DNA from: Candidatus Omnitrophota bacterium
GTDB lineage: Bacteria > Omnitrophota > Gorgyraeia > Gygaellales > Profunditerraquicolaceae
Reading direction: 5' to 3'
Length of the DNA stretch: 64,000 bases
NCBI GenBank assembly: GCA_022710715.1
Contig: JAKLGJ010000002.1
Location: forward strand, 309,453-373,452
The translations under genes and the position numbers were made by a program. The notes beneath the pieces are model-generated. The model saw nothing but the letters and a program-made list of their open reading frames with translations, was not told where the DNA came from and ran no database searches. Shown here one piece after another: positions 31,501-49,500 of this stretch. Numbering within the stretch: the stretch's first letter is position 1; every line of letters starts with the position of its first letter.

Positions 31501-34500
31501 GCACGCATTATTACCGACAGGCGCCGGGCCCAAAGCAAAAGTCCGGTCAACTTCCTTGTTTTCGGAAAGAGCAATGATGCTATCTCTGCGCGTAAAGAGT
31601 ACCGGCTGAAGCTGGAGCGGCTGGCACGGGATTACGGCAATATTACTTTGAAGATGAGCGGTCCCGGGGTCAGCGATGCCGAGAAGCTGGAGTTGATGCA
31701 GAGAAGCTGGGTGGGGGTGGTTCCGTCGTTATATGAGCCGTTCGGCCTGGTGCTGGTGGAATATATGGCCCGGGGAGTGCCGCTGATTTCTTCCCTGACT
31801 CACGGGTCCAGGGATATCCTGGAGACGGCGCATCCGGGCAGGACGCCCTACGGCATTGTCGTGGATGTCGAGGCTCAGCAACTGGCCGACGCCATCGAAG
31901 AGCTGATTGACAAACGGTCATTAGCAGAAGAGTTGGCCGCGAATGCCCGTACCAAGGCTCTCCAGCAGTATCGCTGGATGCCTATTGCACGGAAAATTCT
32001 TGATATTTACGCGACCGAGAGCTTCTCGGATTTTGAACTCGCGCCGTTCACCCGGGAAGAAAAGCTGGATGCGGTGGCAGTGATGCATGCTATTGAACAG
32101 GCGGACGCGCAGGGCTACGTAGAATTCCTGAGGCCGCTGTTCAGGTCATCCCGCGGGCATAATCGCGCCCGTGATATAGAGCGCATGTTTGAGAACGGCC
32201 GGTTGTACCAAATCTTTCCCCATTTGAAGCTTCTCGCCAGCAAGGAGATGTCCGGCCATCCTGCGCCGCACGAGATGTTCCATGCCCTGGACAGCCTGGT
32301 CAGGCTTGATACTGCGGGGTATTCCGGCATGCGCAGGTTTACGTTCGAGCGCGCAGGCAAAAATGCAGGCGCGCTTCCAGAGGTCGATTTTACCGCGATC
32401 CCCGGGTTTACCGGACTAATCAAGAGAATTTTCTCCCGGACCGACGAAGAAATGCGGGAGATCCTGTTTCTGCTGCCGTTTATCGTGGATATCGGCAGAT
32501 GCGTCAAGCCCCAGGCGCATCCTGAAAGCGGAGCGTTCTATTTTGTAAGCCCGCTTTTAAGCAGGCTCGGCTTCAGCCGGCAGGCTATTGAGACGGCAGT
32601 TGCACTTGTCGGCAAGCATGTGGATATCGGCACGATCGTGACCACCGAAAGCACTCCTGACCGGCTGTTTGCCGGATGCCAGCTTTCCCGGGACGCCATG
32701 GATATTTTAACCCTGGTTGCTATCGCTGACAGAAGCTATGGGATCCGAGCCGATGATCTGACTGTTTTCGAATTCCGCGCCTACCTGGCTTGGGGCGATC
32801 AGGATTCGCCGGAGAGAAGCCAGTGGCAGAATACCGCTGACTGGCATCTGCGCAGGCTGGGCAGGTATTTGAAAATGACTCCCGGAGAAGCGCAGTTGAT
32901 GCTTGATGCCATGGTTGCCGCCGGCCAGCTGGACGCCCGGGATCTGGAGGCCATCAGGCATTTCTTCGGAATACAGATCGAATTTATCGATTACGGCGAC
33001 GGAGTATTTAAATATATGACCGGCAGGCCGGACGGGAAGGAGCTTTTTGTCAAGACGTTGGCTATCTACGCCAGATACCTGTCCGCGATCAGCGCGCCGA
33101 TTAACCGGGTCAACCTGGTTAAGGATAGGTTGTATGTCATGGCTTTGACCAATGCTATGCGCTCTCTGTCGTACTCTTCCTCTCCCGAGGAGATTGTAGA
33201 CCATCTGGCTGCTTACGGTATCGCCTTGGTTCTTGTCGGGAATACCACTCTGGTGACCAGGATTACCGATCCCATTGGCCATCTGCGCAGGTTATGCGAA
33301 GAGCGCTGGGATGCGCTGGTGAATACAGCCTTAGCCCGCCAGGTGCAGGAGCGCGGCATTGAGGAAGTCGAGCAGGCGGTTGATCTCGGGCAGGAACCCG
33401 GGATTATCTGGTTTGCCGAACAGATCAAGTATAAAGTGCTGGACGATCCCGAAGGTATAACGCAAGTGAAGGATATTCTTCCTTCGGCAGAAAGCAACTA
33501 TCAGGTTCAGTACAATGTCAGCCGGGGAGTTCAACGCGGTGTGGGAAGAGATACGGTTCCGGCAGCCAATCAATGCGATTTCTGTCGGATGGCTGTAGGA
33601 AAAGATACCGAAGGCCAGTTGCAGGATCTTGAGGAGGCGCTGGGCTTGCCCTATGTGCTGGTTGCCGACAGCCGTCCCTTCTTCGATCGGCACATGCTGG
33701 CGCTGGAAAAGGACCATACCGGAAAGATCACACAGGAAGGCATGCGGGATCTGTTGACCATCTTCAATACCCTCTTCCCGGGGAAAAGAGGCAATATCGG
33801 AACCGGGAATGCCGCCAGCCACCTGCATATCCATATTTACAATACGAGATTTCCCGTTGAGCGGCAGCCGCGCACCTGGTTGCGCGATTCCGGCGATGTG
33901 CGTGTGGGTGTATTTGAAAACGATGTGCATACCGCCGGATTTGTGGTGGAAAGCGCGGATATGGAAGCTTTATCGGCCCAATCTTACCGGATCGTCCAGG
34001 AAATCGAGTCAAAGGGCTGGCTGGTGATCCTGATCACCGCTCCCCATCAGGTGTACATTATCCCACAGCGGACCAAGGAGATAGGAAGCGATTATCCGGA
34101 TATATTCGACGGGTTCAAGAGAACGCGGCGCCCTGAAACCAGGCCGCGCTACGTGGGGCCGGTGGAGGCGGCAGGCATCTGGCTGTGCTACAGCCGGGGC
34201 AATATCCCCGCCATGTACGAGATGTATGACGCGATGAACCTGGAGATATTCCGCAACATCATCAGGGATACCGGCGTTAACCGCAATGATCCCCGGCTGG
34301 AAGAGATGCTTGCGGGATTGACTGTTGACGGAGGCACTGCGGATCCGGAGGCTCTCGCGGTTTTTAAAGAACAGATGGACGCCAAATGGGAGGCATTGCT
34401 GAACAGGGATCTGGAAGCCAGGGTTGCGCGGGAAGGCATGGCGCGGGTGGAAGCGGAATCCGATCTCGGCCATGAATCGGGGATCGTCTGGTTCCCGGAC

Positions 34501-37500
34501 GAGATAAAATACAAAGTTCTCGACAATCCGGAGGGTGTGCGGGAAATCGGCGGCGTGCGGCCTCCTGCCGACAGCAACTATATGGTACAGCATAACGTCA
34601 GCCGCGGCGTGGCCAAATATCATGACGGCGAAGGCTGCGGCTTCTGTGGAGTGGTCAGCGGCCGGAAAGATACGGATACTATCCTGGCCGATCTCGAGGA
34701 TGTTGTTGGCCTGCCGTACATGCTGGTTGCCGATACCCGTCCGTTTTTCAACAAGCATATGCTCGCCCTGGAAAAAGGCCATACCGGAAGGATTACTGCC
34801 AGCGGCATGCGTGAGCTGCTGACGATCTTCAATACCTTATTTCCGGGCAGAAGGGGTAATATCGGCACAGGCAATGCCGCGGAACACCTGCATATACATA
34901 TTTACGATACCGAATTCCCGATCGAACGCCAGGAACGCAGTTGGCTGGTTGACACTGGAAAAGTCAGGATCGGGTTGCTGGAGAGCGACGTGCATACCGC
35001 CGGCTTCGTAGTGGAAAGCGCGGATATGGATAAACTTTCAGACTATGCCTACCGCATCGTCTCCCGCGTCGAGTCCAACGGCTGGCTGGTGATCCTGATC
35101 ACCGCCCCCAACCAGGTCTATGTCATTCCCCAGCGCACCAAGGAGATCGGGGATAATTATCCTGCGATCTTCGACGCTTTCAAGAAGAGCCGGCCTGCGG
35201 GCTTGAGGCCGCGCTACGTGGGGCCGGTGGAGGCGGCAGGCATCTGGCTGTGCTACAGCCGGGGCAATATCCCCGCCATGTACGAGATGTATGACGCGAT
35301 GAATCTGGAGATATTTCGCAACATCATCAGGGATACCGGCGTTCCCACGGATGACGAAGCCCTGGGTGCAATGCTTGATGCCGTGCGATCCTACGGTCGG
35401 GAATTAAAATCGGATCAGCAGAAGCTGGCCTTTATCGATAACTCCCGGGTGGCGTACGTTGAATTACACCTGACCAATACCTGCCAGCTGAAATGCGGCT
35501 GGTGCGCATATAAGGGGGTGGATAAGAAACAGCATCTGCAGTTTGGCGACCTCGACAAGCTGCAGGAGTTGAATCCGGAAGAAATCCTTTTTGTAGGCGG
35601 AGGGGAACCCACGCTTTACCGCGATGCCCGGGCAGGTAAAGATTTCAACGATGCCGTTCTGCGTGTGCGCCAGCTGTGCCCGCAAGCCAAGCTGCGGCTG
35701 ATCACTAACGGCGTGGTCGTCCCTCCAGGCGAATGGGTCCGCGAGATTTCGGAGTTGAGCATATCCTTCGACGAGCCGACCCGTGAAGGATACCGGGAAC
35801 ATAAAGGTGCGGATAAGTTTGCAGATGTATGGGATAACATGGTCTATTATATTCGCGACAGCCCGATTCAGTCCAACCGTGTTACACTGATCTACAATAA
35901 AGAAAAACTCGAAGCTGCACTGATGTTCGCCGGAAAACTCTGGCGCATGTGGCAGGAAATGACGGATAAAGGGGCACTGTCGCAGGAAAAGGCAGACAGC
36001 TTCCGCTATATGATCTTTCCTATGGCCGATGACAGTAGCCCGGATGCGCCGTATGCGGAAACGAAGCTGACTGATCAAGAACAGCAGGAATGGCAATTGC
36101 GTATGGAGCGTATTCGCGGGGAGAATCCCCGCTGGTACCGGTTCCTGGCGGACCATACCAACCTCATTGTCCAGCCCTTAAGTGTTCTTGACGTGCCGTC
36201 GGTAACCCGCTGCCCTACGGTGACCAATTATCTGGTTATGGCTGCGGATAGACAGTATTATCCGTGTTTTGCCATGTGCGAAACCTGCAGCAAAGTCACC
36301 CTGGGGTCCGTTGAGCAGTCGATGCAGGAATTGGCAACGCGAAGGGCGGCGCTTTACCTGCATCCCGACGAGCGCTGTAAAGAAGGGTGTCGGCCCGGAG
36401 CGACTTTTTACGGGGTGCGCGCGCAGGGTCTTTTTGCCGAACAGTTCAGGAATCGGGTTTTTGCTACATGGCAGGGGCTGGTAGAAACCAAGCTGGCTGC
36501 GGATGTGGATCGGGCCGGCATAGAAACCGTTGAGAAAGAAACCGACATTGGCAGGACTCGAGGCATTGTCTGGTTTCCCAGCCGGATCAAATATAAAGCG
36601 CTGGGAGATGCGTTTACCAAAGAAATCCGGGCCGGGCCGCAGGCTCCGCCTGCCGGCTCATATCTAGTCCAATACAACGAGAGCCGGGGTACCAGCCGCA
36701 GCGAACCCAAAGGCTGCGTTTTCTGCCAGCCCAGAGAGAATCTGATCCTCGCCGACTTGGAAGATTATTTCGACCTGCCGTATATCCTCTACGCCGATTC
36801 CCGCCCCTTCTTTGATAAACACATGCTGGTTATTGCCAAAAGGCACACCGGTGTGATCACGTTGAACGTCCTGCGCGATTATCTCTGGATATTGAATACT
36901 CTTTTTCCCGGATTGCGTGGCAATATCGCAACCGGCAACAAGATGGCGCATTTTCACCATCATATCTATGACGTCGAATTCCCGGTGGAGAGAAGGCCCA
37001 AACGCTGGTTGATCGAATCAAAGCTGTTTAAGTTCGGCACCGTCGATAATGACGAGGATACCGCAAGCTTTGTGCTGGAAAGCGAAAACAGCGATATCCT
37101 GGCGCGCAAGGCTTTTATCGTGATCAAGGAACTTGAAGCCCGCGGTTTGCTTACCTGCGTCGTCGTCGCGCCTCATCAGGTGTATATCACTCCCCAACGC
37201 ACCAAGAGCATCGGTGACGATTATCCGGATGCCCTGGTGCCGTTTACCGCGCATGTTCCTGCCGGCGTGCGTCGCAGGTTTATCGGGCCGGTGGAGACCG
37301 CGGGAATATTCCTCTGTTACAGCCGCCCGGATATACAGGCGATGAAACAGATGTATGAAGGCATGGATTATAGTCTGTACCAGCGCATCCTGCGGGATGT
37401 CGGTGTTTCTCGTGGGGACCCGGCGATGGCTGACCTGGAAGCCCTGTTTGCTCTGGTGCTGGACGAGGAAAGATTTTTCATGAGCCTCTTCGACATGCAG

Positions 37501-40500
37501 GCGCAGAACAATGCGTTCTCCGGCGGCAAGGGCGCGAATTTAAGCCATCTGGCCGCATTGAGCGGTTTGCTGCGCGAGCCTTCGGCTGCGGATATCGATC
37601 TAACCGTTCCGATAAGTTACATTGTTTCTGCCGGTGTTTTTCAATCCGTGGTCTTGAGCCGTCCGGAAACAGCGGCTAAGATCGAGAAGTTGGAAGCGGC
37701 TTCGGCCGCATTGGAAACGGCTGATGTCATTGAGGCCGTACGCCTGGAGGAAGAGATTGTTTCTCTCGCCAGAGCGATTCGTAATGACATCCTCTCGGTA
37801 GAGCTGCCTGCTGAAGTCAAAGAGGGATTGGCTGTTATATTCGCTGCCGCGGGGTACCGGGCTGCGATGCGCAGTTCGGCGACCGTCGAGGATTCCGACC
37901 AGAATTCCTGCGCCGGTCAGGCGAAGAGCGCCTTGAATGTGATTACTGCGGAACAGGCGGAATCAGAGCTGAAGCAGGTGTGGGCAAGTCTGTATGACCC
38001 AAGTTTCGTCCAATACCGCAATGACCGGAATGTGGGGCATGCCGGTTCTTTCATGGCAGTGGTGGTGCAGGAAATGGTCGATGCGAAAGTCGCCGGGGTC
38101 ATCCTGACACTGGAAGAGCAGTCGAAACGGTCCGCTTTCCGCGTGACCGCTAACTGGGGGCTGGGAGAATCCGTGGTGCAGGGAGATACCCAGACGGATT
38201 CCTGGCTAGTCAGCCCGGATGCCCGGTACCTGCTGGAATCACGCATCGGGGTCAAACACCTGAAGACCGAATATGACCCGGAGCGCGGCGGGGTGCGATC
38301 GGTTGCAACCAATACTGATGCTGCGGTCAGCTCGTTGTCCGATCAGCACGTCCTGGCCATATGCCGGGTGGCTAGGATGATACGTGATCATTACCGCGCG
38401 CACCGGCAGGTAGCTCACGTGGACATTGAATTCGCGGTCAGCAAAGGCGATAATAAGCTTTTTATCCTTCAGACCCGGCCGGTGACTTCCGGCGATATCA
38501 AAGAAACAATAACGATAAATACGGTGATCCGGGACCGTCAGACGGAGCCTGTTGCGGAAATAACCTTCAAGCAAGGTCTGATATCCAATAAAGGAGCTGT
38601 AACCGGACGATTGCAGGTTGTCGAACGGGCAGACGGCTTCGATGAAGTGCAGGAGGGGGTTATCCTGGTAGCATCCGCAACGAATAACAACTGGAACGCC
38701 GCGTTCAAGAAGATCAAGGCAGTGATCACGGATTTTGGCGACAGTAACTGTCATGCGGCGATCGCTTCCCGGGATGCCAAGCTGGGGCTGGATATACCTT
38801 CGCTAGTCGGGGCTAAAGACGCTACCGCCAGGCTTAAGCCCTATGAAGGGCAGATCGTGACCATTGATTCCCGTCTGCGCACAGTATTCATCGGGGAAAT
38901 GCCCATCGAACCCCTGGAAGTTGAAACGGCTCTCTGGCTGGAGGAGGCTCTTGCGATACGCAGTCAGTTCGAAGGTACGATGTGGCAGCGGTTGAAGGGG
39001 TATGCTAATGCCATGAGCGATTTTGAAGGACACTGGTTTGGCCGCCCGCGTATTCCCTATAGCTTTTTCCAGCTTGATTATTATGACCGTGCGCATGAAC
39101 GGACCGATCGGATACATACCGTGTTCGACTGGCCGGAAAACTCCTTTGAGGGCCCTGTCCCCGCGGTGGAAGCCTGGGGCAGGAAAATAAAGGACGATAT
39201 TATGTATCTGGAGGTCCGGGATGAACCGTACGATGCCCTGGGCGATTTCTTGAGCAGGTTAACCATCGACGGTTTTGAGTATCTTTTTGACCGGCGCTGG
39301 GAAGAGATACAGCGGATCGAACAGTTCACGGTCGGCCTGGAAAAGATCACCGCTTCCAACGCCGCAGATGTGTCCGCCCTGCTGGTAGAAAGCCTCTTCT
39401 GGTCATCCCTGGCTTTTGCGATCAAGGACGCTTTGCTTGAACGCTATGTGAATCCGCAATTGCGCTATATTTCCGACGAGCGCGACGAATCGGGGTATTC
39501 CTACCAGGAGATCATGAAGGACCTTGCGCTGGAGCGCAGGTATCCCGATCGCACGCGCAGCATCGAATCCGCCTACGCCCGGGAACGGGAAAGTATCCTT
39601 CAGGAGATTTTCGGAAATCCCTCTGCCCGGGCGCTGCTGATAGCCGGAGACTACCAACGGTTTGCTGCCGGCTATCCGGGTTTCATGTCCCGGCTTGAGG
39701 CATTGTCCGCATCGTACAAATTCGGCACCGAGGACGTCAGGGTTCTTTCCGATACCCGCCGCTATCTTGAGAGTTTCAGGAATACCCTCGCCAACTACTC
39801 TCCGGATCGCAGGGCGTTGCAACCGGTCAGCCCGTTGAGAATGAACACCGCGGAAGATGCTCTGAAGACCTATCCCAGTCTGGAGAGGATCCTGGCTTTA
39901 GCCAAGCATAACGAGGATGTCAGGAACGATATGCACCACATTATTCTCAGGCTGCAGAGGAAGATCGCTCCCCTGATGACAGGGATAGCCGGGAGCTTTC
40001 CGGATATCTTCGATTCCGCGGAAGATATATTCAGGATCTCTACGGTTGAGCTCGAGGCTCTTCTGCACGATGATCATCCGTACTACCTGCGCCTGACTCC
40101 GTATCGATACAGCCTGACGACAGAAGCGGAACAGGCATTGGAATCAGCATGGTTCGAAAACAGGGCAGCGGCTTTAGAAGAGTACCGCACCTCGGTCGAA
40201 CGGATTGCGGTTATCCTGGAACAGCAGATCGGTCAGGCGGCATATCTGCCGGTCAAGGAGTATTATGCGCAGGAACGCGACCGATTGTATCGCCGCGTGC
40301 TGAGGCTGGAACAGCTTGATGGCGGAGCGGCATCCGGACGGCCGAACAACCGCATCCGGGTGCTGTGTCTGGGCGATTCCATCACCAAAGGTTCGCACGG
40401 CCGGCATCGGCCGGACGTCTTCGGTTACAGAAAAACGCTTCAGCGTTTGCTGGGGATGCAGGACTACGAGTTAGTCGGGCCGTACCGTAATCCGCCCCTC

Positions 40501-43500
40501 GAACCTGGCTATTTGGTCCGGCACGCCGGCAGGAGCGGAGACACCACCGCGGACATCCTGGACCGGCTCGAGCAAACTCTTGCGGATTATCTGCCGCCCC
40601 GGGCCGGCAGTCCGTCGATGATCCTGCTGCATGCCGGCACCAATGATTGCGGTCTGATGACTATGGGAGAGCCCGTTAGCGCCGGTCAGATAGCCGAAAA
40701 TCTCCGAACAATTCTGTCGACCATTGACCGTTTCGATCCGTCTATCGCCGTTTATACCGCTTCGATCGTGCCGAGTTCTTATCTGCCCATGGACCTGAAC
40801 ATCCGTGATTTTAACCGTGAGTTGGACGCTGTCATCAGCGGCATGCAGGTGCGTAAGAATAACCTTTATTCTGTTGACATGTACAGTGTTTTCGTAAATA
40901 ATGAAAGCTGGAAAACAGCTTATCTGGCGGATGCGATCCATCCGTCCGACGTCGGCTATGCGGTCATGGCCGGCGTATGGTATAAAGCAATTTGTCCCGG
41001 CGCTACCCTCGACTTCTACCTTACCGTGGCTGGTGGGGAAGTAGATGGTGTTCACAGCGCCGGGGCATTTTTATTCCCCGGCGATCCGGCTCCCGACGGC
41101 GGGAAGAACAGCGAAATTCCCCTGCTCTGGGAAGGCGAAGTGTTCTGGGTCGAACCGTTCTCTACGCGTGAAGTCCATTGCGCTCTCTGCGGCAAATATT
41201 CATTCTCTCCTCTCGGCTGTGTTGTGCTCAACCGCATCCAGATGTATATCGTAAAATGCGACAACGACGGTTTTATGTGGCTTAATCCCCAGCCCAACGG
41301 CCGCTTCTACGAACAGCTTCACGGCAAGGAATATTTTATTTCCTCCAACAAAAGCCCGGCGTTGATGGAGCAGGTCGGCATCGTCGAGATAGGCAATGAT
41401 GAAATGGCGGCGCAGCGCGCGCGCGTGGCCAGGATACGGGCGGATGAACTGGAAGCGGCCTGGGGAAGAGAGGGGAGCGCGCTTGAGATCGGCTGCGCCA
41501 GCGGCTTTGTGCTTACGGAACTGAAAGCCCGCGGCTGGAAAGTGCAGGGCGTCGATATTTCCGACTACATCATAAAAGTGGCCGGGCGCAGAGGGCTGAA
41601 AGGACTGGTGCATGCCGTCGAATTGAAGAATATGCATTATCCGCCGGATGCTTTCGATGCGGTGCTGATGTACGACGTGCTGGAGCATGCGCCGAATCCG
41701 TTTCAGCTGTTGAGGATCGTCCGGCGGATCCTGCGTTCATCCGGGGTATTGATCGCTCGTCTGCCCGAAACGCCGGAAAGCGGGCCGCAACTTCATTTGA
41801 TCGACCATATCAGCCATTTTACCCGCGGAAATATCGTCGAATTGCTGGAGAAAGCCGGTTTCCGCATCGAGTCGATAGAGAATTCCGGGCTTTTCCAGGG
41901 CAGCGCAGGAAGGACGATTCAGAATATCACGGTCATTGCCCGGCCGGGTCAGGATGGGGGTAAGAGCAGTGTCAGCAGGAAGAACCCCATACGTTTATTC
42001 GTCTATGGAACGCTTAAAAAAGGACATCACAACCATTCCCGTCTGGGTCCGGCCAGGCTGGTGGCGAACAATGCCCGCATGGAAGGGTTCATTCTTTACG
42101 AGCATATCCAGGGTTGGTATCCTTTCGCGGTCGTAGAAGAAGGATCGTATATCACCGGAGAGATCTATGAAGTGGGGCAACGGGAATATATGAATACCCT
42201 GGTCATCGAGAAAAGCGGCGGTTACGAGGTGTGGGAATCCGACGGTGTCAGGATGTTCTATCTGCCGCGGACTTTGCTGGAGTACTTTATCCGGGAAGGC
42301 CGGATCGCCGCCAAGCCGGTAGGGCATACCTGGACGGACCGTTACGATCCGGTGGGCTATCCGAATTGGTGGCGCGACGGCGGGGCGGATCCGGTAACGG
42401 TAACGGACATCCAGGATGTGTTGGCCATGCTCCGGCCGCGTATCACGGAGAAACGCCGGTATGCGAAAACCCCGTTTTTGATCTTTGTTGCCGGCAAGTC
42501 CTGCTCCGGAAAAACCTCGGTCGTTTCGAATGTGTTGAAGAAAGAGTTCCAGGCTAAGGTGCTCAATATGGATAGTTATTATCTGGGCAGAAGCTATATG
42601 AAGAAGAACGGCCTGGATAATTACGATGTTCCGGAAGTGTTTGACTGGAAGCTTTTCCGCAAGCAGCTGGAGCAGTTGAGCCGGGGCAAAACCGTGCAAG
42701 TCCCGGAATATTCATTCGCCAGAGGCGAGAGGGAAGGATATGTAAACTTTTCGCCTGCTCCGGTGATCATCGTGGAGGGGCTGTTCACCCTGGATAATTC
42801 CATCAGTCATCTGGGCGATTTCGGCATTTTCGTCGATGTGGGCAAGCTCGGCCAGTTGCTGCGCCGCGTCAATCGCGATGCGGCTGCGCAGGGGATCAGG
42901 TATGTTCTCAAGCAGATGTTTACCCAGGTAATTCCCGCCCAGGACGCGTATCTGGAACCGACCAAAAAGAATGCCGACGTTATTCTGCTCAACGATTACA
43001 ATGCGGATGAGGAAGCGGAAAAGATCGGTGTTTACGAATTGCAGGCCAAGGCTCGGATCGGATCCTCGATCGCCATCGAACAGGCTATTCGCGTTTTGGG
43101 CGCCAAACCGACGGCGCAGGCGCTCCAGGTGGATTCATATTATGCGCCCCGGGACAAAAAGCTGCGAGAAGCGCACGAGACGTTGCGTATACGCATCCAG
43201 GATCATCAGGTAAGCGCGACCTACAAAGGACCGCTCTTGCCGGCGGCGATGAGTTATCGGCCGAAACTGCTTTTCGCTTTTGAAAAAGAATGGATCCCTT
43301 ATGTGGAGAAGGATTTTTCTTTACAGGCCAGAGTGGTCAAGACCAGAAAGATCTTTACCTGCGGGGAGCTGTTCATTCACCTGGACCAGGTCGAAAATCT
43401 GGGCGCGTTTATCGAGATCGTCAGCACGCACCTCGGGTCCCAGCAAGCGATACAGGCGCTTCTGGCGAAACTCGGCATTGCGCAAGGCGCCCTGATCAGA

Positions 43501-46500
43501 GAAAGCTATTTCGAGCTTAGTCAGCGGCAGCGCAGTCAGGAGCAGGACGGCGGCAACGACGAATCGCACGCCCGGCTGGTTGAGACGCTGCGGATCATGG
43601 AACAGGCATACGGCATCGTGGGCAGGTCGGGTAAAAAACCTGACCGCGTCGCGCGCGTTTTCGCCGCAGCCGAAGAAGCGTTCTTTGCCGCGCAGAAAAA
43701 ACTTCCCGCTGCGCGCCGGCTGGCCTATCACGATCTGCGCCACGCGGCGGAAACGGCTTTGTTCGTGGCTCGCGCGCTTGAGCAGGAACGGTCTTTCCGG
43801 CAGGCGGGATTCGGATATCAGGTCATGGAGCTGGCGGTGATCGCGGCTCTGGTCCACGACAGCGGGTACTGGCGTCCGGAATGGTGGAAATGCGCGGCTG
43901 TCCACGAAGAAGAATCCAAAAAGTTCCTGGAGCGGCCGGATATGCGGCGCTTCTTTTCGGAAAAAGACCGCGCGATCGTGGCGGAGATGATCGAATTCAC
44001 CAAATTTTTCGGAGAGGAAAATGCTCCCGGCAGGATTTATTCCCGGGTGAATCTTTCGCCGACGTACAAAATCGCCGGGACGCTTCTGGGCATAGGCGAC
44101 CTGCTTACGGTGTACGGCGAGGACGCGATTATCGAGAAAGGAAAAGAGTTAAACCGTGAGATGGAAGCGTCCGGGCAGGGGATAGCGTCGGAGCGGTTGT
44201 ATGTGGAATGGAATGCATTCTTCGAGCAACAGGTCATTCTGCGGCTGGGGGCTTTCGGGAAGATCTACCGGAGAGAATACCTGCGTCCGTACCGGAACAG
44301 ATTGTGGATCAATCACCGCATGATCTCCGCGCTGGCCCGGATGCAGATTTTTCGCGGTAGAAACCCTTCGGATACGATCGCATTGTATCCGGGGTATTTC
44401 AACGGTCCGTCCGATTCGACGCGGGATGTGGTCAGGATCGCCCGGAGCATATTCGGCAAAGTCATCGTGGTGGTTTTGCCGGAAGGTCTGCAGGATGCGG
44501 AATCGCTTGAAGACAAAAGGCGCGCAATGGTCAAACTGCTGCAGCCGGATGACTGGAATTTCCGCTCGGTTCGGGTTATCGCTTTGCCGCGACCGGAACT
44601 GATCGAAGAGCTGGCCGCAGCGGTGAACGCGCGCATCCTCATCCGCCGGCTACGCTCCCGCGTGCCGCAAGAAAAGCTGGCTGCGGAGGCGGCGAATGCC
44701 AGGATCAATTATCAGCGGTTCGGGCTGGAGACCTATTTTGTGATCCCGGCGAACAGGTTCCTGATCATCGAGGATAACCTGCTGGCTAAATATCAGGCGG
44801 CATTCGAAAAAATGCTCGGGTTAGCCCCGGGCAGCCGCGATATCCGTTCGGATGAGTTCGCATCGCTTATCCGGGAATACAACCTGAACCGTTTCGCTCC
44901 CCGGGGATTGCCGGTCAGCGACAAAAAAGCATTCTATGTGGGAAGTTTCGATCCGGTCACTCTGGGGCATCTGGAAGTGATCAGGCGTCTGAAAAGGGAT
45001 TTTCACCGGGTTGCGGTGGGGATCGGGGTCAATCCGGATAAAAAAGAAAACGGAATGTTCGCGTCCGAAGAGCGGAAAGTCCTGATCGAGCGCGCCCTGG
45101 CCGATGCAGGGATAACCGGAGTGGAGGTGGTGATCTACGAGGGCAATACCGTTGACCAGGCGCGTAAGCTGGGCGCAGGAGTTCTGGTCAGGGGAGTGCG
45201 TTCGGTCAAGGACCTGAAAGAAGAGCTGGCCTGGAAATTCGCGAATGCGCTGCTTGACGACGGGATCAAATCCCTGATCGTGGTTCCCTATACCTATACC
45301 AGGGTCAGCTCGAGCGCAGTGAAGCGCAGTCTGGCCGCGGGGATGGATGTGGAGGATGTCGTTCCGGCTGCAGTGGCCAGAGCATTGCAGGTCAAACAGC
45401 GGTTTTTGTTAGATGATGACCAGCGTGATGGGGGAGAGTTTCTTCAGCAACAGATGGAAGAACTCAAGGCGCAGGCGCAATCGGATCCCGCGCATGCGGT
45501 AGCTATCCTGGAAGCACGGCTGACCGATAATAAAGCCCATCCGGATCTGCGCAATCTGGCCGCGGATATGCTCCTGGAATTCGGCGATCCGGCTGCTGTG
45601 GGAAGCCTTTTGATCGTTTTGCTCGGCGATACCGGCACGCAGCATCGCGTGCGCTCGCACGCTGCCGAGTTGCTCGGCCGGATGAAGGAGCAGGCAGCCC
45701 TGAATGCGCTGATCCGCTCGCTCGGGGACGGGAATAATTACGTGCGTTCCCGGTCGGCTTGGGCGCTGGGAGAACTGGGGATTGCCGGCGCAGGCCGCCC
45801 GCTGCACAGAGCTTTGCTTGCGGAAGATAATACCTACGCTATCCAGCAGATCATTTATGCTCTGGGCAAATTGCGTTACGCGAGCGCCTGCAATGATATC
45901 GTGCATATTCTGAAAACCGGACTGGCGCCGGTTCGTATCGCCGCGGCACAGGCGCTGGGAGAGATTCGCTGCGCGCAGGCGGTAAAATCATTGATCGGCG
46001 TATTGAGCGATCCGCATGAAGCATTCCGAACGAGGGCCAACGCCGCTTTCTCGCTCGGGCAACTCGAAGATTTGCGGGCGGTCGAACCGCTGATCGACGC
46101 TATCTGGTCCGAGCACGATACTACTATACGCAAACAGGCGGCCAGAGCGCTGGGTATGCTCAAGGATAAAAGAGCGGTCAGCGCTTTGATCACTGCGCTG
46201 GAAGACGAAAACCAATTTGTCCGGGAGAACGCTGCCTGGGCGCTGGGAGAATTAACGGACAGGCGGGCGCTGGACCCTCTGCGCGTCGCTTTGCGCGATA
46301 TGAATGATTTTGTCAGCGAAGAGGCTGCGCGCTCCCTGGGCCGGATGGCCAGGGGCGGCCATCCGCGGGCAGTGGACATCCTGATCCATGGATTAGCCGC
46401 GGATAAGACAGTCCACATTGCGTACGCGGCGCTGGGGCTGGGTTTAACCCGCAACAAGAGGGCGGTATTTCCTTTGATCGGCATGCTCAATCATCCCGAT

Positions 46501-49500
46501 CCCGATGTGCTTTTTTACGTTATCTCGTCATTGGGATCTTTGCGGGACCGCCGCGCGCTTGAGCCGCTGCTGGAGCTTCGAAGCAGGATATCCGACGAGA
46601 GGGTATTGTTCGCCCTGAAACGGTCGCTGGCGCGGCTTGATGCGCGCGCTCCGATCATGTCCGGCGAAGGGAACGACGGCGGAGCGGTTACCGTAGAGCG
46701 GTATTTCCAGGATAAGGGCAATTTCATCACTTTTACCACGCAGGAGCTCAAGGAGGGACGGCCGGTGCAGGTCGCGCCCGGCCAGATCGTTCTGATCAAA
46801 GCGTTCCCCCGGGCGTTCGACGAATACCCGCAGTTGGCGCTGCAGACCGAGCTGGCCGTAGACCAGGTCGCTTTTGCGACCCGGGCATTCACCCGGGAAG
46901 GGCAGGTCATTTTGATCCTGCGGCATCTTGATACGTTCACTCGCCAGCAAGACCTGTATGAAGCGCTGGAAGATATGTACGCCATCATGCGGGGTAAATC
47001 CGAGATCTCCGAAGACGAGCTGGAGACTTCGGAGGGGATGTTCTTCCCGAATATGTACGATCAGTCGCCGCAGGCACGCTGGCTGCGGGATCAGGCAGGC
47101 GCAGCGGTAAAAGTCAATTTTACGCCCCGCCAGAATATCAGCGTGAAAGTGGGGCTGGATGGCGCGCACATACGCGTTCGCGCCGCTATGGATTCGCAGG
47201 AAATGGCTATGGGCATTCATCAGTCGACCTATGAGTCCTGGTCCGGGCGAAAAGGGCTGTTGGTGCTGGACAACGGGCACGCTTATATTGCCGGCGGCCT
47301 GCCGGAATTCTACAAAGAGAAGATGCTGTACTTTTTCAATCAGAGGCTCCAGGCGATCAAAGGATTCCAGAATCAGGCGCCGCCGGCTTTGCGCGACCTT
47401 CCTCTGCCTGCCCGCGCCGCCATTCTTCTGACCACCAACGATAAATTCGTCTCCTCTTTCGGGATCGCCGACGTGAATATCCAGCAGCACATCACCGACA
47501 GCTATCCCAGCGACACCATCGTCATCCACATAAGCGCTTTTGACCTGGCCGAACCCTTGCTCGAAGATCTGCTGTTGCGCAAGCTTATCGCCGCCGGCAC
47601 GCAGGACAACCGCGCGTCTTACGAAGCGATGATGGCGTATCTGGACCTTGACCGGCCCGCGTTGGCCAGGCTCATCCAGGCGATACAGCAGGAGAAACGT
47701 TCGGTCGCGCCGTCTTATCAGCAGGCGCTGATCAAGCGCTTTTTGACGGGTAACGGACTGGTGCAGGCATTTGCCAGGGCGTATGCTTTCAAGTCCGGCG
47801 CCGGGCAAGACGCGGAGGCGGTTTCAGCGATGCTCGAAGCGGTGGTGGAATCATTCGTCCAGGAGCCCGATCCATACAGTCTTTCCGGCGCAGCGCTGGT
47901 GAGCGTGCGCGATGTTTCGGTTACCGCCGGCCGGTTGAGTTTCTCTTTACAGAAATTGCTCAAGCTGATCTCTCTGTCCGGCCTGGTCCATGACGCTGAT
48001 ACGGCCGGCGCTCCGGTCGATTCCATCAGGTTGTTTATCCCGGGCGCGCAGGCGGGCGCGTTCACGCTGATCAGGATCAGGAAAACGGAGAACGGGTTCT
48101 GGCAGGCCGAATCCCGCAGCTTCCTGAACGCCGAGATCATCAGCGAGGGCAAAGCGGTCCCGCTGGCCCGGATCGCAGAAAAGATTTTCAGCGCGGATAG
48201 AGTCCTGGATGGCGGCGTGCGGATCATCGACACGCAGGCGGTCGCGCAGGCGCTGGAGGAGAGCGCTTCGTGTTATTCCGATCATACCTGGGAGTTCGAA
48301 TTCGGGACACACCGGCCGGACGCCGAAGAAATCGGACAGTTCGTCCGGGGATGCGCGTGCGTTAATCGGCATCTGTATTGGGGCGACAGCGTTGATTTCG
48401 AAACGCTTCTTTTCAACCTGGCGTACATATTCCGGCTTGACCAGCGCCAGTCCGGCGCGGTCAGGCGGCAGAATCCTTACCGTCTGGTCCAGCGAAAAAA
48501 TCTGGGGGAATTTCAACGGTTAGTGCATGCGTACGGGATATTGTCCCGCGCAGATCCGCACTATCGCGCAGGGTATGTGTACGCCGGCATTTATATCCCG
48601 CAGATGTTCGAATCCGGGAATCATCGTATCGGTCTCCTTGCCGCGGACTATGTATTGTTGCGCGGGGCTCTGGAGCCGTATTCCCTCACCGGAGATTCGG
48701 CGGGAGCATTCTTCGATATCTCGGCAAGGATATATATGGATAACGATGTCGAGCTGGGGGCGCGGCGCTTCGCGGGATTCCTGCAGCAATACGGCTCGGC
48801 GCGTTTTATCTGCGACGGAGGCAGCGAGCCGGAGCCGCCGGTCCGCTCCATCATCCGCGGCAGAGTGGTAAATAATGAAGTGATCGTTGATCTATGCGAA
48901 ATCCCTGGGGTCGACCCGGACGAAATCTCCGAAAAAATGTCCGCCGTCCTGATGGTTTTGAAGAAACACAAGGTCTGGGGTTTTGTTTACAGCCGGACCC
49001 ATCCGGCGGATTTCGCCTTCATTTTCGACGGCAGCGAGAAGGGCGTTTTTACCACCTGCTCCAGCCCGGAGGGTATCTCACTGCCCGCAGCGGTGTTAAA
49101 GAATCAGGCCCTGCTGATGTTCGTCCTGCGTCATAAACTGCATTGCGACCGTTGCCTGATCACTGACGGCTGCGGGGCGGAAGTCCTGCACGGCGATATG
49201 TGTTTTTTCCTGCGCTTGCCTGCTACCGAGCGTCAGACGATTATTGACGGTCTGCAGCAGTATGCTTATCCCGCCCAGAAGAATCTTGAGCAGATACATG
49301 AATCCCTGAAGAGCCTGGTCACCGGACAGGCAGATGCGGTGATAGCTGTGGGCCGGATATTCCAGTTATTATACGGCAGTCCTTTGCGGGAGTTCTATCC
49401 GAATATGGAATATCTCAATCAGGCTGTTCCGGCAGTCTTCAAGGCTTTCGAAAAGAAACACGTAGAGATTCCCGAAGGAAGGATCGTCGGTCTGATCGTT

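What the first reader, a model, noticed from the sequence alone, without database searches (positions are those of the whole stretch)
40339..45402. Cluster of small-molecule and nucleotide enzymes (SGNH, MTase, GGCT, Udk-like, CYTH, HD, CoaD-like PPAT) inside a carbohydrate megaprotein
The CoaD-like domain (GSFDPVTLGH ... VSSSAVKRS) is collinear with authentic phosphopantetheine adenylyltransferase. The Udk-like P-loop kinase is fused to a CYTH domain, then HD. A GGCT/AIG2 domain (FVYGTLKKG) sits after a zinc-ribbon methyltransferase. These are cytoplasmic nucleotide or cofactor-handling folds. Their presence hints at in-chain nucleotide-sugar or alarmone-like chemistry, or at domains exapted as binding modules. 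Each is delimited by DGG junctions.
Basis: partly seen in the sequence, partly recalled or inferred. Interest (0 to 1): 0.6.

Follow-up and report, generated by a model that had tools for sequence, protein, structure and literature searches.

The report
Enzyme cassettes inside a giant bacterial protein
This stretch is part of one enormous gene (over 21,000 codons, probably from an Omnitrophota bacterium) that strings together complete, apparently working small enzymes, each separated from the next by the same three-residue tag, Asp-Gly-Gly, which may mark where the giant protein is cut up or hinged.

Summary
The whole 64-kb window is one stop-free + strand frame (at least 21,333 codons, both ends open). 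Window 40318-45435 holds five DGG-delimited cassettes:
- an SGNH esterase;
- a Cys-rich SAM methyltransferase;
- an AIG2/GGACT domain;
- a Udk-like kinase fused to CYTH (architecture of plant TTM1);
- a three-domain cassette.

Canonical catalytic motifs are kept everywhere except in the degenerate PPAT copy. So these are probably working enzymes, not binding modules.

Cassettes match full-length standalone proteins. Their cofactor needs (ATP, SAM) and a 13.5-kaa stretch without strong hydrophobic segments suggest a cytoplasmic face.

This fits the published "multi-enzyme metabolic" class of Omnitrophota giant proteins, so it is a new member of a known kind.

The new detail is DGG. It is the most enriched tripeptide (35 observed, 6.4 expected). 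None lies inside a Pfam domain. It sits at the same cassette borders in two independent relatives (46-53% identity) whose linkers are otherwise unconserved. I found no mention of it in the two giant-gene preprints. It may be a processing site.

The parts
1..63999 (+). Single stop-free reading frame (21,333 codons) that runs off both ends of the window. This is the giant multi-enzyme ORF that contains the finding.
   Evidence: six-frame stop scan. (about 35 Pfam families, all in this frame).
40318..40326 (+). DGG junction (aa 13440-13442) that opens the SGNH cassette.
40360..40971 (+). SGNH/GDSL hydrolase domain. Blocks GDS, G, GTND and DxxH are intact. The nearest solved structure is the C. 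thermocellum lipolytic enzyme 2vpt.
   Evidence: PF13472, 74 bits. (alignment to 2vpt). (weak match to AxeA1 acetylxylan esterase).
41095..41103 (+). DGG junction (aa 13699) that opens the methyltransferase cassette. A DGG sits at the same position in P0001.
41179..41268 (+). Cys-rich N-terminal element of the methyltransferase cassette (CxxC ... C-x2-D), a putative metal site.
   Evidence: C29, C32, C55 and D58 are invariant in three homologues.
41443..41874 (+). Class I SAM-dependent methyltransferase domain. Motif I (LEIGCASG), the acidic residue (GVD) and FDAV...LEH are present.
   Evidence: PF13489, PF08241..
41953..42375 (+). GGACT/AIG2-like cassette, opened by DGG at aa 13985. It has the YGTL motif and the conserved Glu in GEIYEV.
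   Evidence: PF06094, 52 bits against a cut-off of 22.8. (alignments to 1v30 and 2qik).
42376..42384 (+). DGG junction (aa 14126) that opens the kinase-CYTH cassette.
42481..42987 (+). Udk/PRK-family P-loop kinase domain. Walker A (GKSCSGKT), catalytic Asp (MDSYY) and lid (RRVNRD) are present. The UCK2 base-reading His has no counterpart.
43033..43521 (+). CYTH (triphosphate tunnel) domain with an ExQxK signature. It is fused to the kinase, as in standalone 400-580-aa proteins and in plant TTM1.
   Evidence: PF01928. (58 two-domain homologues). (7z66 spans both domains).. (TIGR00318, 61.3 against 57.95).
43546..43554 (+). DGG junction (aa 14516) that opens the PDE-like/PPAT cassette. A DGG sits at the same position in P0063.
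43588..44361 (+). Class-I-phosphodiesterase-like HD-superfamily domain. It is all-alpha, with YHDxxH ... HD ... HEE ... D. The family is rare: 9 relatives among 1.84 billion representative proteins.
44368..44784 (+). Degenerate PPAT-like nucleotidyltransferase copy. It lacks the TxGH His and the SSS motif, but its sequence is conserved in P0063.
   Evidence: 25% identity to the PPAT domain, E 8e-4. (TIGR01510, 34 bits, below cut-off)..
44920..45396 (+). Intact phosphopantetheine adenylyltransferase (CoaD-type) domain. It has GSFDPVTLGH, DKK, RGVR and VSSS.
   Evidence: 1od6 and 1vlh, E 1e-26, full length. (TIGR01510, 120.3 against a cut-off of 103.3).
45427..45435 (+). DGG junction (aa 15143) that closes the cassette and opens the HEAT-repeat cassette. 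A DGG sits at the same position in P0063.

Best explanation
Window 40318-45435 is a run of five enzyme cassettes inside one giant, membrane-anchored, multi-enzyme protein of the kind described in Omnitrophota. Each cassette corresponds to a complete standalone soluble enzyme that has been fused in frame and is bounded by an Asp-Gly-Gly tripeptide.

The five cassettes are:
1. an SGNH esterase;
2. a Cys-rich SAM methyltransferase;
3. an AIG2/GGACT-type cyclotransferase;
4. a Udk-like P-loop kinase fused to a CYTH triphosphate-tunnel domain;
5. a class-I-PDE-like metal phosphohydrolase, then a degenerate PPAT copy, then an active-looking PPAT.

The cassettes most likely act as independent catalysts on the cytoplasmic side, tethered to the chain or released from it. 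They would use ATP and SAM next to the glucan-building and glucan-tailoring cassettes that fill the rest of the ORF.

Shown: domain identities, intact motifs, correspondence of cassettes to whole proteins, and conservation of DGG borders.

Inferred: catalytic activity, cytoplasmic location, Omnitrophota origin, and any pathway link between cassettes.
For: - The frame is a single stop-free stretch of 21,333 codons.
- All domains are confirmed.
- Catalytic motifs are intact: SGNH blocks; methyltransferase motif I; GGACT YGTL and Glu; Walker A, Asp and lid, with the CYTH residues that are invariant in the family; PDE-like H62, H66, H104, D105, H120, D185; PPAT His, Lys, RGxR and SSS, with the CoaD equivalog cut-off passed.
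- Cassettes equal whole proteins. Udk-CYTH aligns over 95% of its length to standalone proteins of 400-580 aa. The query runs only about 9 residues beyond the homologues' C-terminus before the next DGG, and the shortest homologues' N-termini lie within a few tens of residues of the opening DGG. The PDE-like domain matches a 276-aa ORF. PPAT matches full-length CoaD.
- The tandem GT5 cassettes align end to end from DGG to DGG.
- The three-domain PDE-like/pseudoPPAT/PPAT cassette is collinear at 46% identity in an independent MAG protein, P0063.
- No strong hydrophobic segment lies between aa ~3335 and ~16866, apart from a Rossmann and a HEAT false positive. That stretch holds NAD-, ATP-, SAM- and radical-SAM-dependent domains, which fits a cytoplasmic location.
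- The closest relative of the methyltransferase cassette comes from Candidatus Omnitrophota MAGs.
- The domain mix matches the published 'Archaeovorin' and 'multi-enzyme metabolic cluster' classes.
Against: - No activity, expression or topology data exist for this protein.
- The transmembrane scan was a crude hydropathy window, not a topology predictor.
- Nielsen & Lui argue that in some giants with a signal peptide and transmembrane helices the multi-enzyme content faces outward.
- Both ends of the ORF are missing, so the signal peptide, C39 and SecA-like domains cannot be checked.
- Four collection scans found neither the source nor close relatives, so the lineage rests on one 53%-identity homologue. 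P0063 is labelled Deltaproteobacteria.
- The Udk-like domain falls below the Udk equivalog cut-offs and lacks the base-reading His. The CYTH has ExQxK, not ExExK. Their substrates are therefore unknown.
Confidence: 0.62

Rival explanations
1. The giant ORF is a polyprotein. DGG marks sites where a glycine-glycine-specific peptidase (such as the C39 domains reported in Omnitrophota giant proteins) or an Asp-specific peptidase cuts the chain and releases each cassette as a free enzyme. The 'cluster' would then be an operon written as one reading frame.
For: - DGG is the most enriched tripeptide: 35 observed against 6.4 expected, 5.4-fold, with the next best at 2.8-fold. Other xGG, DGx and DxG tripeptides are much less enriched or not at all; the highest is DGC at 3.1-fold on 2 occurrences.
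- Synonymous codons vary at the sites, so selection acts on the protein.
- None of the 35 sites lies inside a Pfam envelope, although envelopes cover 27% of the chain (P about 1e-5).
- Cassette ends coincide with the termini of standalone homologues.
- DGG sits at the same borders in P0001 (53% identity, GC 33%) and P0063 (46% identity), while the flanking linker residues are unconserved.
- Both relatives are also enriched: 5 against 0.64 and 6 against 0.32.
- Standalone homologues are not enriched: 3 against 15 expected.
- West-Roberts et al. report C39 and S8 peptidase domains in these giants, propose cleavage, and state that the cleavage points are unknown.
Against: - There is no proteomic evidence.
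- No peptidase domain was found in the window at E<1e-3.
- The upstream hydrophobic pattern of classical double-glycine leaders is absent. Only position +1 (K or A) and position -1 (L, P or Q) show a mild bias.
- Not every domain boundary has a DGG. For example, UDP-glucose dehydrogenase to GFO_IDH has none, and neither does the outer edge of the 335-aa repeats.
- Contigs from ERZ1286166 that carry PDE-like homologues have no DGG at all.
- P0001 (2,159 aa) has DGG sites but no peptidase of its own.
Confidence: 0.3
2. The domains are pseudo-enzymes, kept as ligand-binding or scaffolding modules of a carbohydrate-active surface protein.
For: - One PPAT-like copy is clearly degenerate yet conserved.
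- The Udk-like domain lacks the base-reading His and falls below the equivalog cut-offs.
- The CYTH signature is ExQxK.
- HEAT-repeat scaffolds lie next door.
Against: - All other catalytic motifs are intact.
- The PPAT passes the CoaD equivalog cut-off.
- The ExQxK signature and the kinase motifs are shared with all 10 standalone homologues in the alignment, so they are family traits, not decay.
Confidence: 0.1
3. The cassettes are extracellular effectors that act on prey or host surfaces, as proposed for Archaeovorin-type giant proteins.
For: - The literature proposes extracellular cell-wall-targeting roles, and outward-facing enzyme content in giants with a signal peptide and transmembrane helices.
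- SGNH esterase, GH9 and the amylase-family domains could act on polysaccharides outside the cell.
Against: - PPAT, the Udk-like kinase, PPDK_N, the SAM methyltransferases, radical SAM and the NAD-dependent dehydrogenases need ATP, SAM, NAD or a reductant, which are not available outside the cell. This rests on established biochemistry of the domains found.
- Their nearest homologues are ordinary cytoplasmic enzymes.
Confidence: 0.12
4. The long frame is an assembly or annotation artefact, and the domains belong to separate genes.
For: The source contig could not be found in any collection, so the assembly cannot be inspected.
Against: - A run of 21,333 codons without any of the three stop codons cannot arise by chance or from a variant genetic code.
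- All Pfam hits are in the same frame.
- Minus-strand ORFs are short and have no Pfam match.
- In-frame DGG-linked cassettes recur in independent MAGs.
Confidence: 0.02

Closest known systems
Omnitrophota giant proteins: 'Archaeovorins' (West-Roberts et al. 2023, bioRxiv 10.1101/2023.11.21.568195) and the 'multi-enzyme metabolic cluster' class (Nielsen & Lui 2026, bioRxiv 10.64898/2026.06.07.730766)
   Same: - The ORF is tens of kb long.
- Many different Pfam families tile one chain: starch synthase, GT1, methyltransferases, GNAT, HAD, radical SAM and HEAT scaffolds.
- Transmembrane segments are scattered along the chain.
- The nearest homologue is from an Omnitrophota MAG.
   Different: - The termini are missing, so the hallmark C39 and SecA_DEAD domains could not be checked.
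- The GGACT, Udk-CYTH, PDE-like and PPAT cassettes and the DGG border motif are not mentioned in the parts of those papers I read or searched.
Plant TTM1/TTM2 (PDB 7z66, 'inorganic pyrophosphatase TTM1') and standalone bacterial Udk-CYTH proteins
   Same: - A P-loop Udk/PRK-family kinase is fused to a C-terminal CYTH domain.
- The match spans both domains (58 standalone homologues at 33-37% identity).
   Different: - Here the unit is embedded in a giant ORF between DGG junctions.
- Many standalone homologues (579 aa) have an extra N-terminal CYTH domain.
- The substrate is unknown.
Bacterial phosphopantetheine adenylyltransferase (CoaD; TIGR01510; PDB 1od6, 1vlh, 1b6t)
   Same: - It is collinear over the full length, with the catalytic His, Lys, RGxR and SSS motifs.
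- It scores above the equivalog cut-off.
   Different: - It is not a free 160-aa protein. A degenerate PPAT paralogue and a PDE-like domain precede it in one conserved cassette.
- The Tyr98 equivalent is Glu (read from the sequence against my recollection of E. coli CoaD).
Class I cyclic-nucleotide phosphodiesterase catalytic domain (PF00233; PDE5, PDE10, PDE1B, PDE4)
   Same: - The YH(N/D)xxH ... HD ... D metal and acid-base motif matches at profile level (E 3.6e-6).
- The whole-domain fold matches at TM 0.44-0.60, and all of the top 50 hits are PDEs.
   Different: - No Pfam HD or PDEase_I hit reaches threshold.
- The domain is about 260 aa rather than about 330, with 14-16% identity.
- The purine-clamping residues were not examined, so the substrate is unknown.
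Double-glycine leader processing by C39 peptidases, and LXGG-type polyprotein processing by papain-like proteases
   Same: - A strict Gly-Gly sits at inter-unit borders.
- C39 domains are reported in the same class of giant proteins.
   Different: - Asp is strictly required before GG, and no conserved leader-like hydrophobic pattern is present.
- Cleavage has not been demonstrated.

Membership tests
Omnitrophota multi-enzyme giant protein (Archaeovorin / class 1) | Single ORF of at least 10,000 aa | tested here: met
   At least 21,333 codons without a stop; both ends are open.
Omnitrophota multi-enzyme giant protein (Archaeovorin / class 1) | Many distinct enzyme Pfam families tile the chain and none dominates | tested here: met
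   About 35 families, including GT2, GH9, GT5, GDE_C, UDP-glucose dehydrogenase, radical SAM, PPDK_N, methyltransferases, GNAT, HAD and HEAT.
Omnitrophota multi-enzyme giant protein (Archaeovorin / class 1) | Transmembrane helices along the chain | tested here: inconclusive
   A hydropathy scan finds clusters at aa 3-850, 3240-3335, 16866-17045 and 20957-21005. No dedicated topology predictor was available.
Omnitrophota multi-enzyme giant protein (Archaeovorin / class 1) | C39 or S8 peptidase and SecA_DEAD-like domains | tested here: not met
   No such Pfam hit in the 21,333 aa of the window. The N- and C-termini lie outside the window, so absence from the whole protein is not shown.
Omnitrophota multi-enzyme giant protein (Archaeovorin / class 1) | Omnitrophota genome of origin | tested here: inconclusive
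   The best homologue of one cassette comes from Candidatus Omnitrophota MAGs (53% identity). A second relative is labelled Deltaproteobacteria. The source contig was not found.
Phosphopantetheine adenylyltransferase (CoaD, TIGR01510) | Score above NCBIfam's equivalog cut-off over the full length | tested here: met
   120.3 bits against 103.3; profile positions 2-154 of 155.
Phosphopantetheine adenylyltransferase (CoaD, TIGR01510) | Catalytic T/HxGH His, the K42 equivalent, RGxR arginines and the ISSS motif | tested here: met
   GSFDPVTLGH, NPDKK, VRGVR and VSSS align with 1od6 and 1vlh.
Phosphopantetheine adenylyltransferase (CoaD, TIGR01510) | Adenylyl transfer to 4'-phosphopantetheine | not testable with these tools
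   Needs an enzyme assay.
Uridine kinase (Udk; TIGR00235 / NF004018) | Score above the equivalog cut-off | tested here: not met
   129.9 against 180, and 116.1 against 220.3.
Uridine kinase (Udk; TIGR00235 / NF004018) | Walker A, catalytic Asp and Arg lid | tested here: met
   GKSCSGKT, MDSYY and RRVNRD.
Uridine kinase (Udk; TIGR00235 / NF004018) | Base-reading His of UCK2 (in the YDFVSHSRK segment) | tested here: not met
   A gap aligns opposite that His in the UCK2 alignment. The role of that His is from my own knowledge.
CYTH / class IV adenylate cyclase (TIGR00318) | Score above the NCBIfam cut-off | tested here: met
   61.3 against 57.95, which is borderline.
CYTH / class IV adenylate cyclase (TIGR00318) | N-terminal ExExK signature | tested here: not met
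   The signature is ELQAK (ExQxK), as in all 10 standalone Udk-CYTH homologues aligned.
TTM1-like Udk-CYTH fusion | One unit made of a P-loop kinase followed by CYTH | tested here: met
   7z66 aligns over query residues 34-381. The 58 homologues cover up to 95% of the query.
HD superfamily / class I PDE | Pfam HD or PDEase_I score above the gathering threshold | tested here: not met
   No hit for the window sequence even at E<=10. Relatives score 14-20 bits against a cut-off of 22.
HD superfamily / class I PDE | Metal and acid-base residues H..H..HD..D | tested here: met
   H104 and D105 are invariant, and H62, H66, H120 and D185 nearly invariant (at least 90%), in a 10-sequence family alignment. 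They align to the PDE5 YHNWRH...HD motif.
HD superfamily / class I PDE | PDE catalytic-domain fold | tested here: met
   AlphaFold model with pLDDT 88. All of the top 50 Foldseek PDB hits are class I PDEs, with TM 0.44-0.60.
SGNH hydrolase | Blocks I (GDS), II (G), III (GxND) and V (DxxH) | tested here: met
   LGDSITKG, RSGDT, GTND and DAIHPS align to 2vpt. PF13472 covers profile positions 1-178 of 178.
GGACT / AIG2-like | Pfam score above the gathering threshold, with the YGTL motif and the conserved Glu | tested here: met
   52.2 against 22.8. FVYGTLKKG and GEIYEV align to 1v30 and 2qik. The catalytic role of the Glu is from my own knowledge.
Double-glycine (C39) processing site | Gly-Gly at the border of the unit to be released | tested here: met
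   35 DGG, none inside a Pfam envelope, at cassette borders that are conserved in relatives.
Double-glycine (C39) processing site | Leader-like conserved hydrophobic pattern upstream of GG | tested here: not met
   No positional conservation upstream. Only weak L, P or Q at position -1.
Double-glycine (C39) processing site | Actual cleavage, and a cognate peptidase | not testable with these tools
   Needs proteomics and the missing ORF termini or the genome.

The most novel reading that the evidence does not exclude
Asp-Gly-Gly is a dedicated, protein-level cassette-border signal in one lineage of giant multi-enzyme proteins, and it is the long-sought processing site. The giant ORF would then be a bacterial polyprotein, cut at DGG by a Gly-Gly-specific (C39-type) or Asp-specific peptidase into dozens of ordinary enzymes, possibly including housekeeping ones such as CoaD. 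This would give a simple rule for parsing these proteins in silico and would explain why cytoplasm-type enzymes are written into one frame.
Probability: 0.3. Interest if true: 0.8.

Novelty: new member of a known kind. Interest (0 to 1): 0.5.

Why it matters
Giant Omnitrophota genes are among the longest known, and their function is openly debated. One question is whether they act inside or outside the cell. Another is whether they work as one chain or are cleaved.

This window bears on both questions.

- It holds a run of intact, cofactor-dependent enzymes of cytoplasmic type, including a bona fide CoaD-type PPAT. That argues against a purely extracellular adhesin or lysin role for this segment.
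- It has a strictly conserved Asp-Gly-Gly tripeptide at cassette borders. This is a concrete, testable candidate for the cleavage or hinge points that West-Roberts et al. said were unknown and that blocked domain-wise analysis.

If DGG proves to be a processing site, existing proteomes could be re-searched for DGG-terminated peptides, and giant ORFs could be split into cassettes for structure prediction.

The conserved PDE-like/pseudoPPAT/PPAT cassette also defines a rare family: 9 relatives among 1.84 billion representative proteins. It pairs a class-I-PDE-like fold with a CoA-pathway enzyme, and that pairing has no assigned function.

Tried and rejected
1. Finding the source or close relatives. 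Two scans of genome contigs, two of metagenome contigs and two of viral contigs returned no relatives, or only ordinary CoaD genes (L004, L005).
2. Whole-region protein search. It returned three hits, limited by the word index. Per-cassette searches worked better.
3. Two-sequence profile of the 'HD' region against the PDB. It gave only spurious hits to designed PPR repeats. The first AlphaFold model, built from two sequences, was poor (pLDDT 65). Both improved with the 10-sequence alignment.
4. DGG as a DNA-level signal, such as an internal Shine-Dalgarno GGAGG or a recombination scar. Rejected: glycine codons vary freely (GGC, GGA, GGG, GGT), only 7 of 35 sites contain GGAGG, and no start codon follows consistently.
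5. Preference for GAC over GAT at DGG. This is explained by general Asp-Gly codon context: 47:12 at other DG sites against 28:7 at DGG.
6. DGG as a classical double-glycine leader. The upstream pattern is absent.
7. DGG as a universal feature of relatives. Rejected: three ERZ1286166 contigs that carry PDE-like homologues have none.
8. The small P-loop cassette after PPAT in P0063 as a Udk-like counterpart. No significant similarity (E 1.0).
9. Genes on the minus strand, or RNA families, in the region. The four minus-strand ORFs have no Pfam hit, and Rfam has no match in 38000-48000.
10. AcpH-like phosphopantetheine salvage as a reason for the PDE-PPAT fusion. I considered this from memory only and could not test it, so I do not claim it.

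Full report
**Observation**

The whole 64,000-nt window is one stop-free reading frame on the + strand, frame 1, with 21,333 codons that run off both ends. The longest stop-free stretch in any other frame is 655 codons. The finding corresponds to aa 13447-15134 of this frame.
- Lipase_GDSL_2, E 2e-20.
- Methyltransf_23, E 2.5e-18.
- GGACT, E 1e-13.
- PRK/Udk, E 6e-23, directly followed by CYTH, E 7e-15.
- CTP_transf_like, E 2e-16.

The rest of the frame carries these domains:
- GT2/chitin-synthase-like, GH9 and UDP-glucose dehydrogenase (x2).
- HAD, alpha-amylase family, three GT5 starch-synthase units and GDE_C.
- GFO_IDH, GT4, radical SAM and PPDK_N with a PEP-utilizer swivel domain.
- HEAT repeats, GNAT, PHP and four more methyltransferases.

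'Carbohydrate megaprotein' is therefore a fair description. The four minus-strand ORFs under the finding have no Pfam match, and Rfam finds nothing between 38000 and 48000.

**Cassette by cassette**

1. *SGNH (window 40318-41094).* Blocks I (GDS), II (G), III (GTND) and V (DxxH) all align to the C. thermocellum lipolytic enzyme 2vpt. There is a weak match to the acetylxylan esterase AxeA1.

2. *Methyltransferase (41095-41952).* A Cys-rich N-terminal element (CxxC...C-x2-D; three invariant Cys and one Asp in three homologues) precedes a class I SAM fold with motif I intact. Distant matches include a D-glucose O-methyltransferase, 6uv6.

3. *GGACT/AIG2 (41953-42375).* The YGTL motif and the Glu of GEIYEV align to PH0828 and YkqA.

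4. *Udk-like kinase plus CYTH (42376-43545).*
   - This is an ancestral two-domain unit. Fifty-eight proteins of about 400-580 aa, one of them named from Candidatus Parcubacteria, match at 33-37% identity over up to 95% of the cassette.
   - The solved plant TTM1 (7z66) spans both domains.
   - Walker A, the catalytic Asp and the RRxxRD lid are kept. The CYTH signature is ExQxK here and in all 10 standalone homologues aligned.
   - The kinase is below NCBI's Udk cut-offs and lacks the UCK2 base-reading His. The CYTH just passes the class IV adenylate cyclase model, 61.3 against 57.95.

5. *PDE-like, pseudoPPAT and PPAT (43546-45426).*
   - A full HMMER scan of 1.84 billion representative proteins found only nine relatives.
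   - In a 10-sequence alignment, H104 and D105 are invariant, and H62, H66, H120 and D185 are nearly invariant.
   - That profile matches the PDE5 catalytic motif (VAYHNWRH...AALSHD) at E 3.6e-6. All 60 hits displayed, of 101 at E<=1, are cyclic-nucleotide phosphodiesterases.
   - An AlphaFold model reached pLDDT 88 and pTM 0.88. Its top 50 Foldseek PDB matches are all class I PDE catalytic domains, with TM 0.44-0.60 over about 300 columns.
It is 25% identical and collinear with the true PPAT (E 8e-4) and scores 34 bits on TIGR01510. It lacks the TxGH His and the SSS motif.
   - The last domain is an intact PPAT. It matches T. thermophilus and T. maritima CoaD over the full length at E 1e-26, keeps GSFDPVTLGH, DKK, RGVR and VSSS, and scores 120.3 bits against the 103.3 equivalog cut-off.

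**Relatives**

- *P0063* is a 1,094-aa ORF fragment that fills a 3.3-kb MAG contig. It is named 'pantetheine-phosphate adenylyltransferase, partial [Deltaproteobacteria bacterium]'. It carries the whole three-domain cassette collinearly at 46% identity, including the conserved but degenerate PPAT copy, with DGG at both ends.
- *P0001* is a 2,159-aa protein from Candidatus Omnitrophota MAGs with GC 33%. It carries the methyltransferase cassette at 53% identity, again with DGG at both borders.
- *P0062, P0064 and P0066* are PDE-like homologues called as short ORFs of 188-276 aa. They lie in tight same-strand gene arrays on long-read contigs from ENA sample ERZ1286166. Those arrays contain no DGG at all.

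**The DGG motif**

- DGG occurs 35 times against 6.4 expected. It is the most enriched tripeptide by a factor of two.
- The maximum in 2,000 residue permutations was 16. The Poisson p-value is about 4e-15.
- No other xGG is enriched, and a third of all GG dipeptides lie in DGG.
- Glycine codons vary freely, and the GAC preference is the general Asp-Gly context. Selection is therefore on the peptide, not the DNA.
- None of the 35 sites falls inside a Pfam envelope, although envelopes cover 27% of the chain (P about 1e-5). One caveat applies: I cut the query at DGG sites before scanning. Most hits nevertheless cover their profiles end to end.
- Cassette ends coincide with the termini of standalone homologues. 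For example, the standalone Udk-CYTH proteins end at ...SYFEM, and the cassette reads ...SYFEL-SQRQRSQEQ-DGG.
- The two tandem GT5 cassettes align end to end from DGG to DGG at 39% identity.
- The relatives are enriched too: P0001 has 5 against 0.64 and P0063 has 6 against 0.32. The 69 mostly standalone homologues and other hits fetched as controls have 3 against 15 expected.
- The flanking residues are not conserved, apart from K or A at +1 and L, P or Q at -1. Orthologous junctions share nothing but DGG.
- DGG is not at every domain boundary, and it is absent from one set of related contigs.

**What is known**

- West-Roberts et al. (2023) describe Omnitrophota giant genes of up to 85,804 aa. 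Their 'Archaeovorin' type carries glycosyltransferases, methyltransferases, hydrolases and NUDIX domains. They note C39 and S8 peptidase domains and propose cleavage, and they state that the lack of information on cleavage points blocked a domain-wise analysis.
- Nielsen & Lui (2026) define a 'multi-enzyme metabolic cluster' class, with starch synthase, GT1, methyltransferase, GNAT, HAD, radical SAM, HD-domain regulators and HEAT scaffolds. They debate whether the enzyme content faces the cytoplasm or the outside.
- Neither text contains 'DGG', 'double-glycine', 'polyprotein' or 'linker'.

**Interpretation**

The finding is a real and correctly read stretch of a giant multi-enzyme protein of a published kind.

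A cytoplasmic location is inferred from two observations:
- The cassettes depend on ATP, SAM, NAD or radical-SAM chemistry.
- No strong hydrophobic segment lies between aa ~3335 and ~16866. The prediction method was crude.

No pathway link between the cassettes can be shown. Several contexts are only suggestive:
- CYTH lies next to a PDE-like domain.
- The fusion of the PDE-like domain with PPAT is conserved.
- A sugar-type methyltransferase and an esterase lie among the glucan enzymes.

The most novel reading that the evidence does not exclude is that DGG marks processing sites of a polyprotein. I put this at about 0.3. It fits the reported C39 domains and the correspondence of cassettes to whole proteins. 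It lacks a leader-like context, a peptidase in the window, and any proteomic evidence.

**Verdict**

- Observation: confirmed.
- Novelty: new member of a known kind.
- Interest: moderate (0.5). It is carried mainly by the DGG border motif and by the rare PDE-like/pseudoPPAT/PPAT cassette.

Noticed in passing
window 1-63999 (+): The entire window is one open frame of 21,333 codons with both ends missing, so the real gene is longer than 64 kb. GC skew is positive throughout (cumulative skew +2.24 over the window).
   Followed up: partly
window 17410-21426 (aa 5804-7142): Two tandem starch-synthase (GT5+GT1) cassettes of 671 and 668 aa align end to end at 39% identity, each running exactly from DGG to DGG. 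A third, partial GT5 follows at aa 7367-7504.
   Followed up: partly
window 33304-34311, 34384-35376 and 36469-37443 (aa 11102-11437, 11462-11792, 12157-12481): A unit of about 335 aa with no Pfam match occurs three times (66% and 46% identity). Copies 1 and 2 are separated by a DGG. Copy 2 precedes the radical SAM domain and copy 3 precedes PPDK_N.
   Followed up: no
window 37522-38871 (aa 12508-12957): PPDK_N (E 2e-58) and a PEP-utilizer swivel domain occur without the PEP/pyruvate-binding domain, among starch-synthase, GDE and amylase cassettes. From memory, this resembles the layout of glucan-water dikinases. Not tested.
   Followed up: no
window 1-2550, 9718-10005, 50596-51135 and 62869-63015: Hydrophobic, transmembrane-like segments cluster at aa 3-850 (around the GT2/chitin-synthase-like domain), 3240-3335, 16866-17045 and 20957-21005. 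The 13.5 kaa between 3335 and 16866 has none that is convincing.
   Followed up: partly
window 61321-62166 (aa 20441-20722): A second copy of the Cys-rich methyltransferase cassette (38% identity to the one in the finding) also ends in DGG just after its last strand.
   Followed up: yes
L002 1-20831, L006 and L007 (ENA ERZ1286166 contigs): The homologues of the PDE-like domain sit in long same-strand arrays of short, overlapping, mostly unannotated ORFs. Residues upstream of the called Met of P0062 are conserved in P0066, and several domains are split across adjacent ORFs (AAA_11/AAA_12, Sigma70_r4/r2). These may be giant genes broken by long-read indel errors. They contain no DGG.
   Followed up: partly
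P0063 / L003 1-3281: After its PPAT cassette, this relative carries a small P-loop NTPase-like cassette and then Rce1-like/CPBP intramembrane-protease cassettes. One complete cassette begins DGG-AKTYWPFF. The ORF then ends at DGG-KKVYWPIFL, the start of what looks like a second one. A protease family linked to bacteriocin processing sits inside a DGG-linked protein.
   Followed up: no
P0004, P0025, P0043 and others (579-aa homologues): Many standalone relatives of the kinase-CYTH cassette carry an extra N-terminal CYTH domain with a canonical ExExK (EIEKKF). Their architecture is therefore CYTH-Udk-CYTH, with the second CYTH having ExQxK.
   Followed up: no
window 45427-46674 (aa 15143-15558): The cassette right after the finding is a pure HEAT-repeat unit (PF13646, E 9e-60, six stretches). 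More HEAT units occur at aa 18088-18121 and 19765-19851, and they may act as scaffolds between the enzyme cassettes.
   Followed up: no
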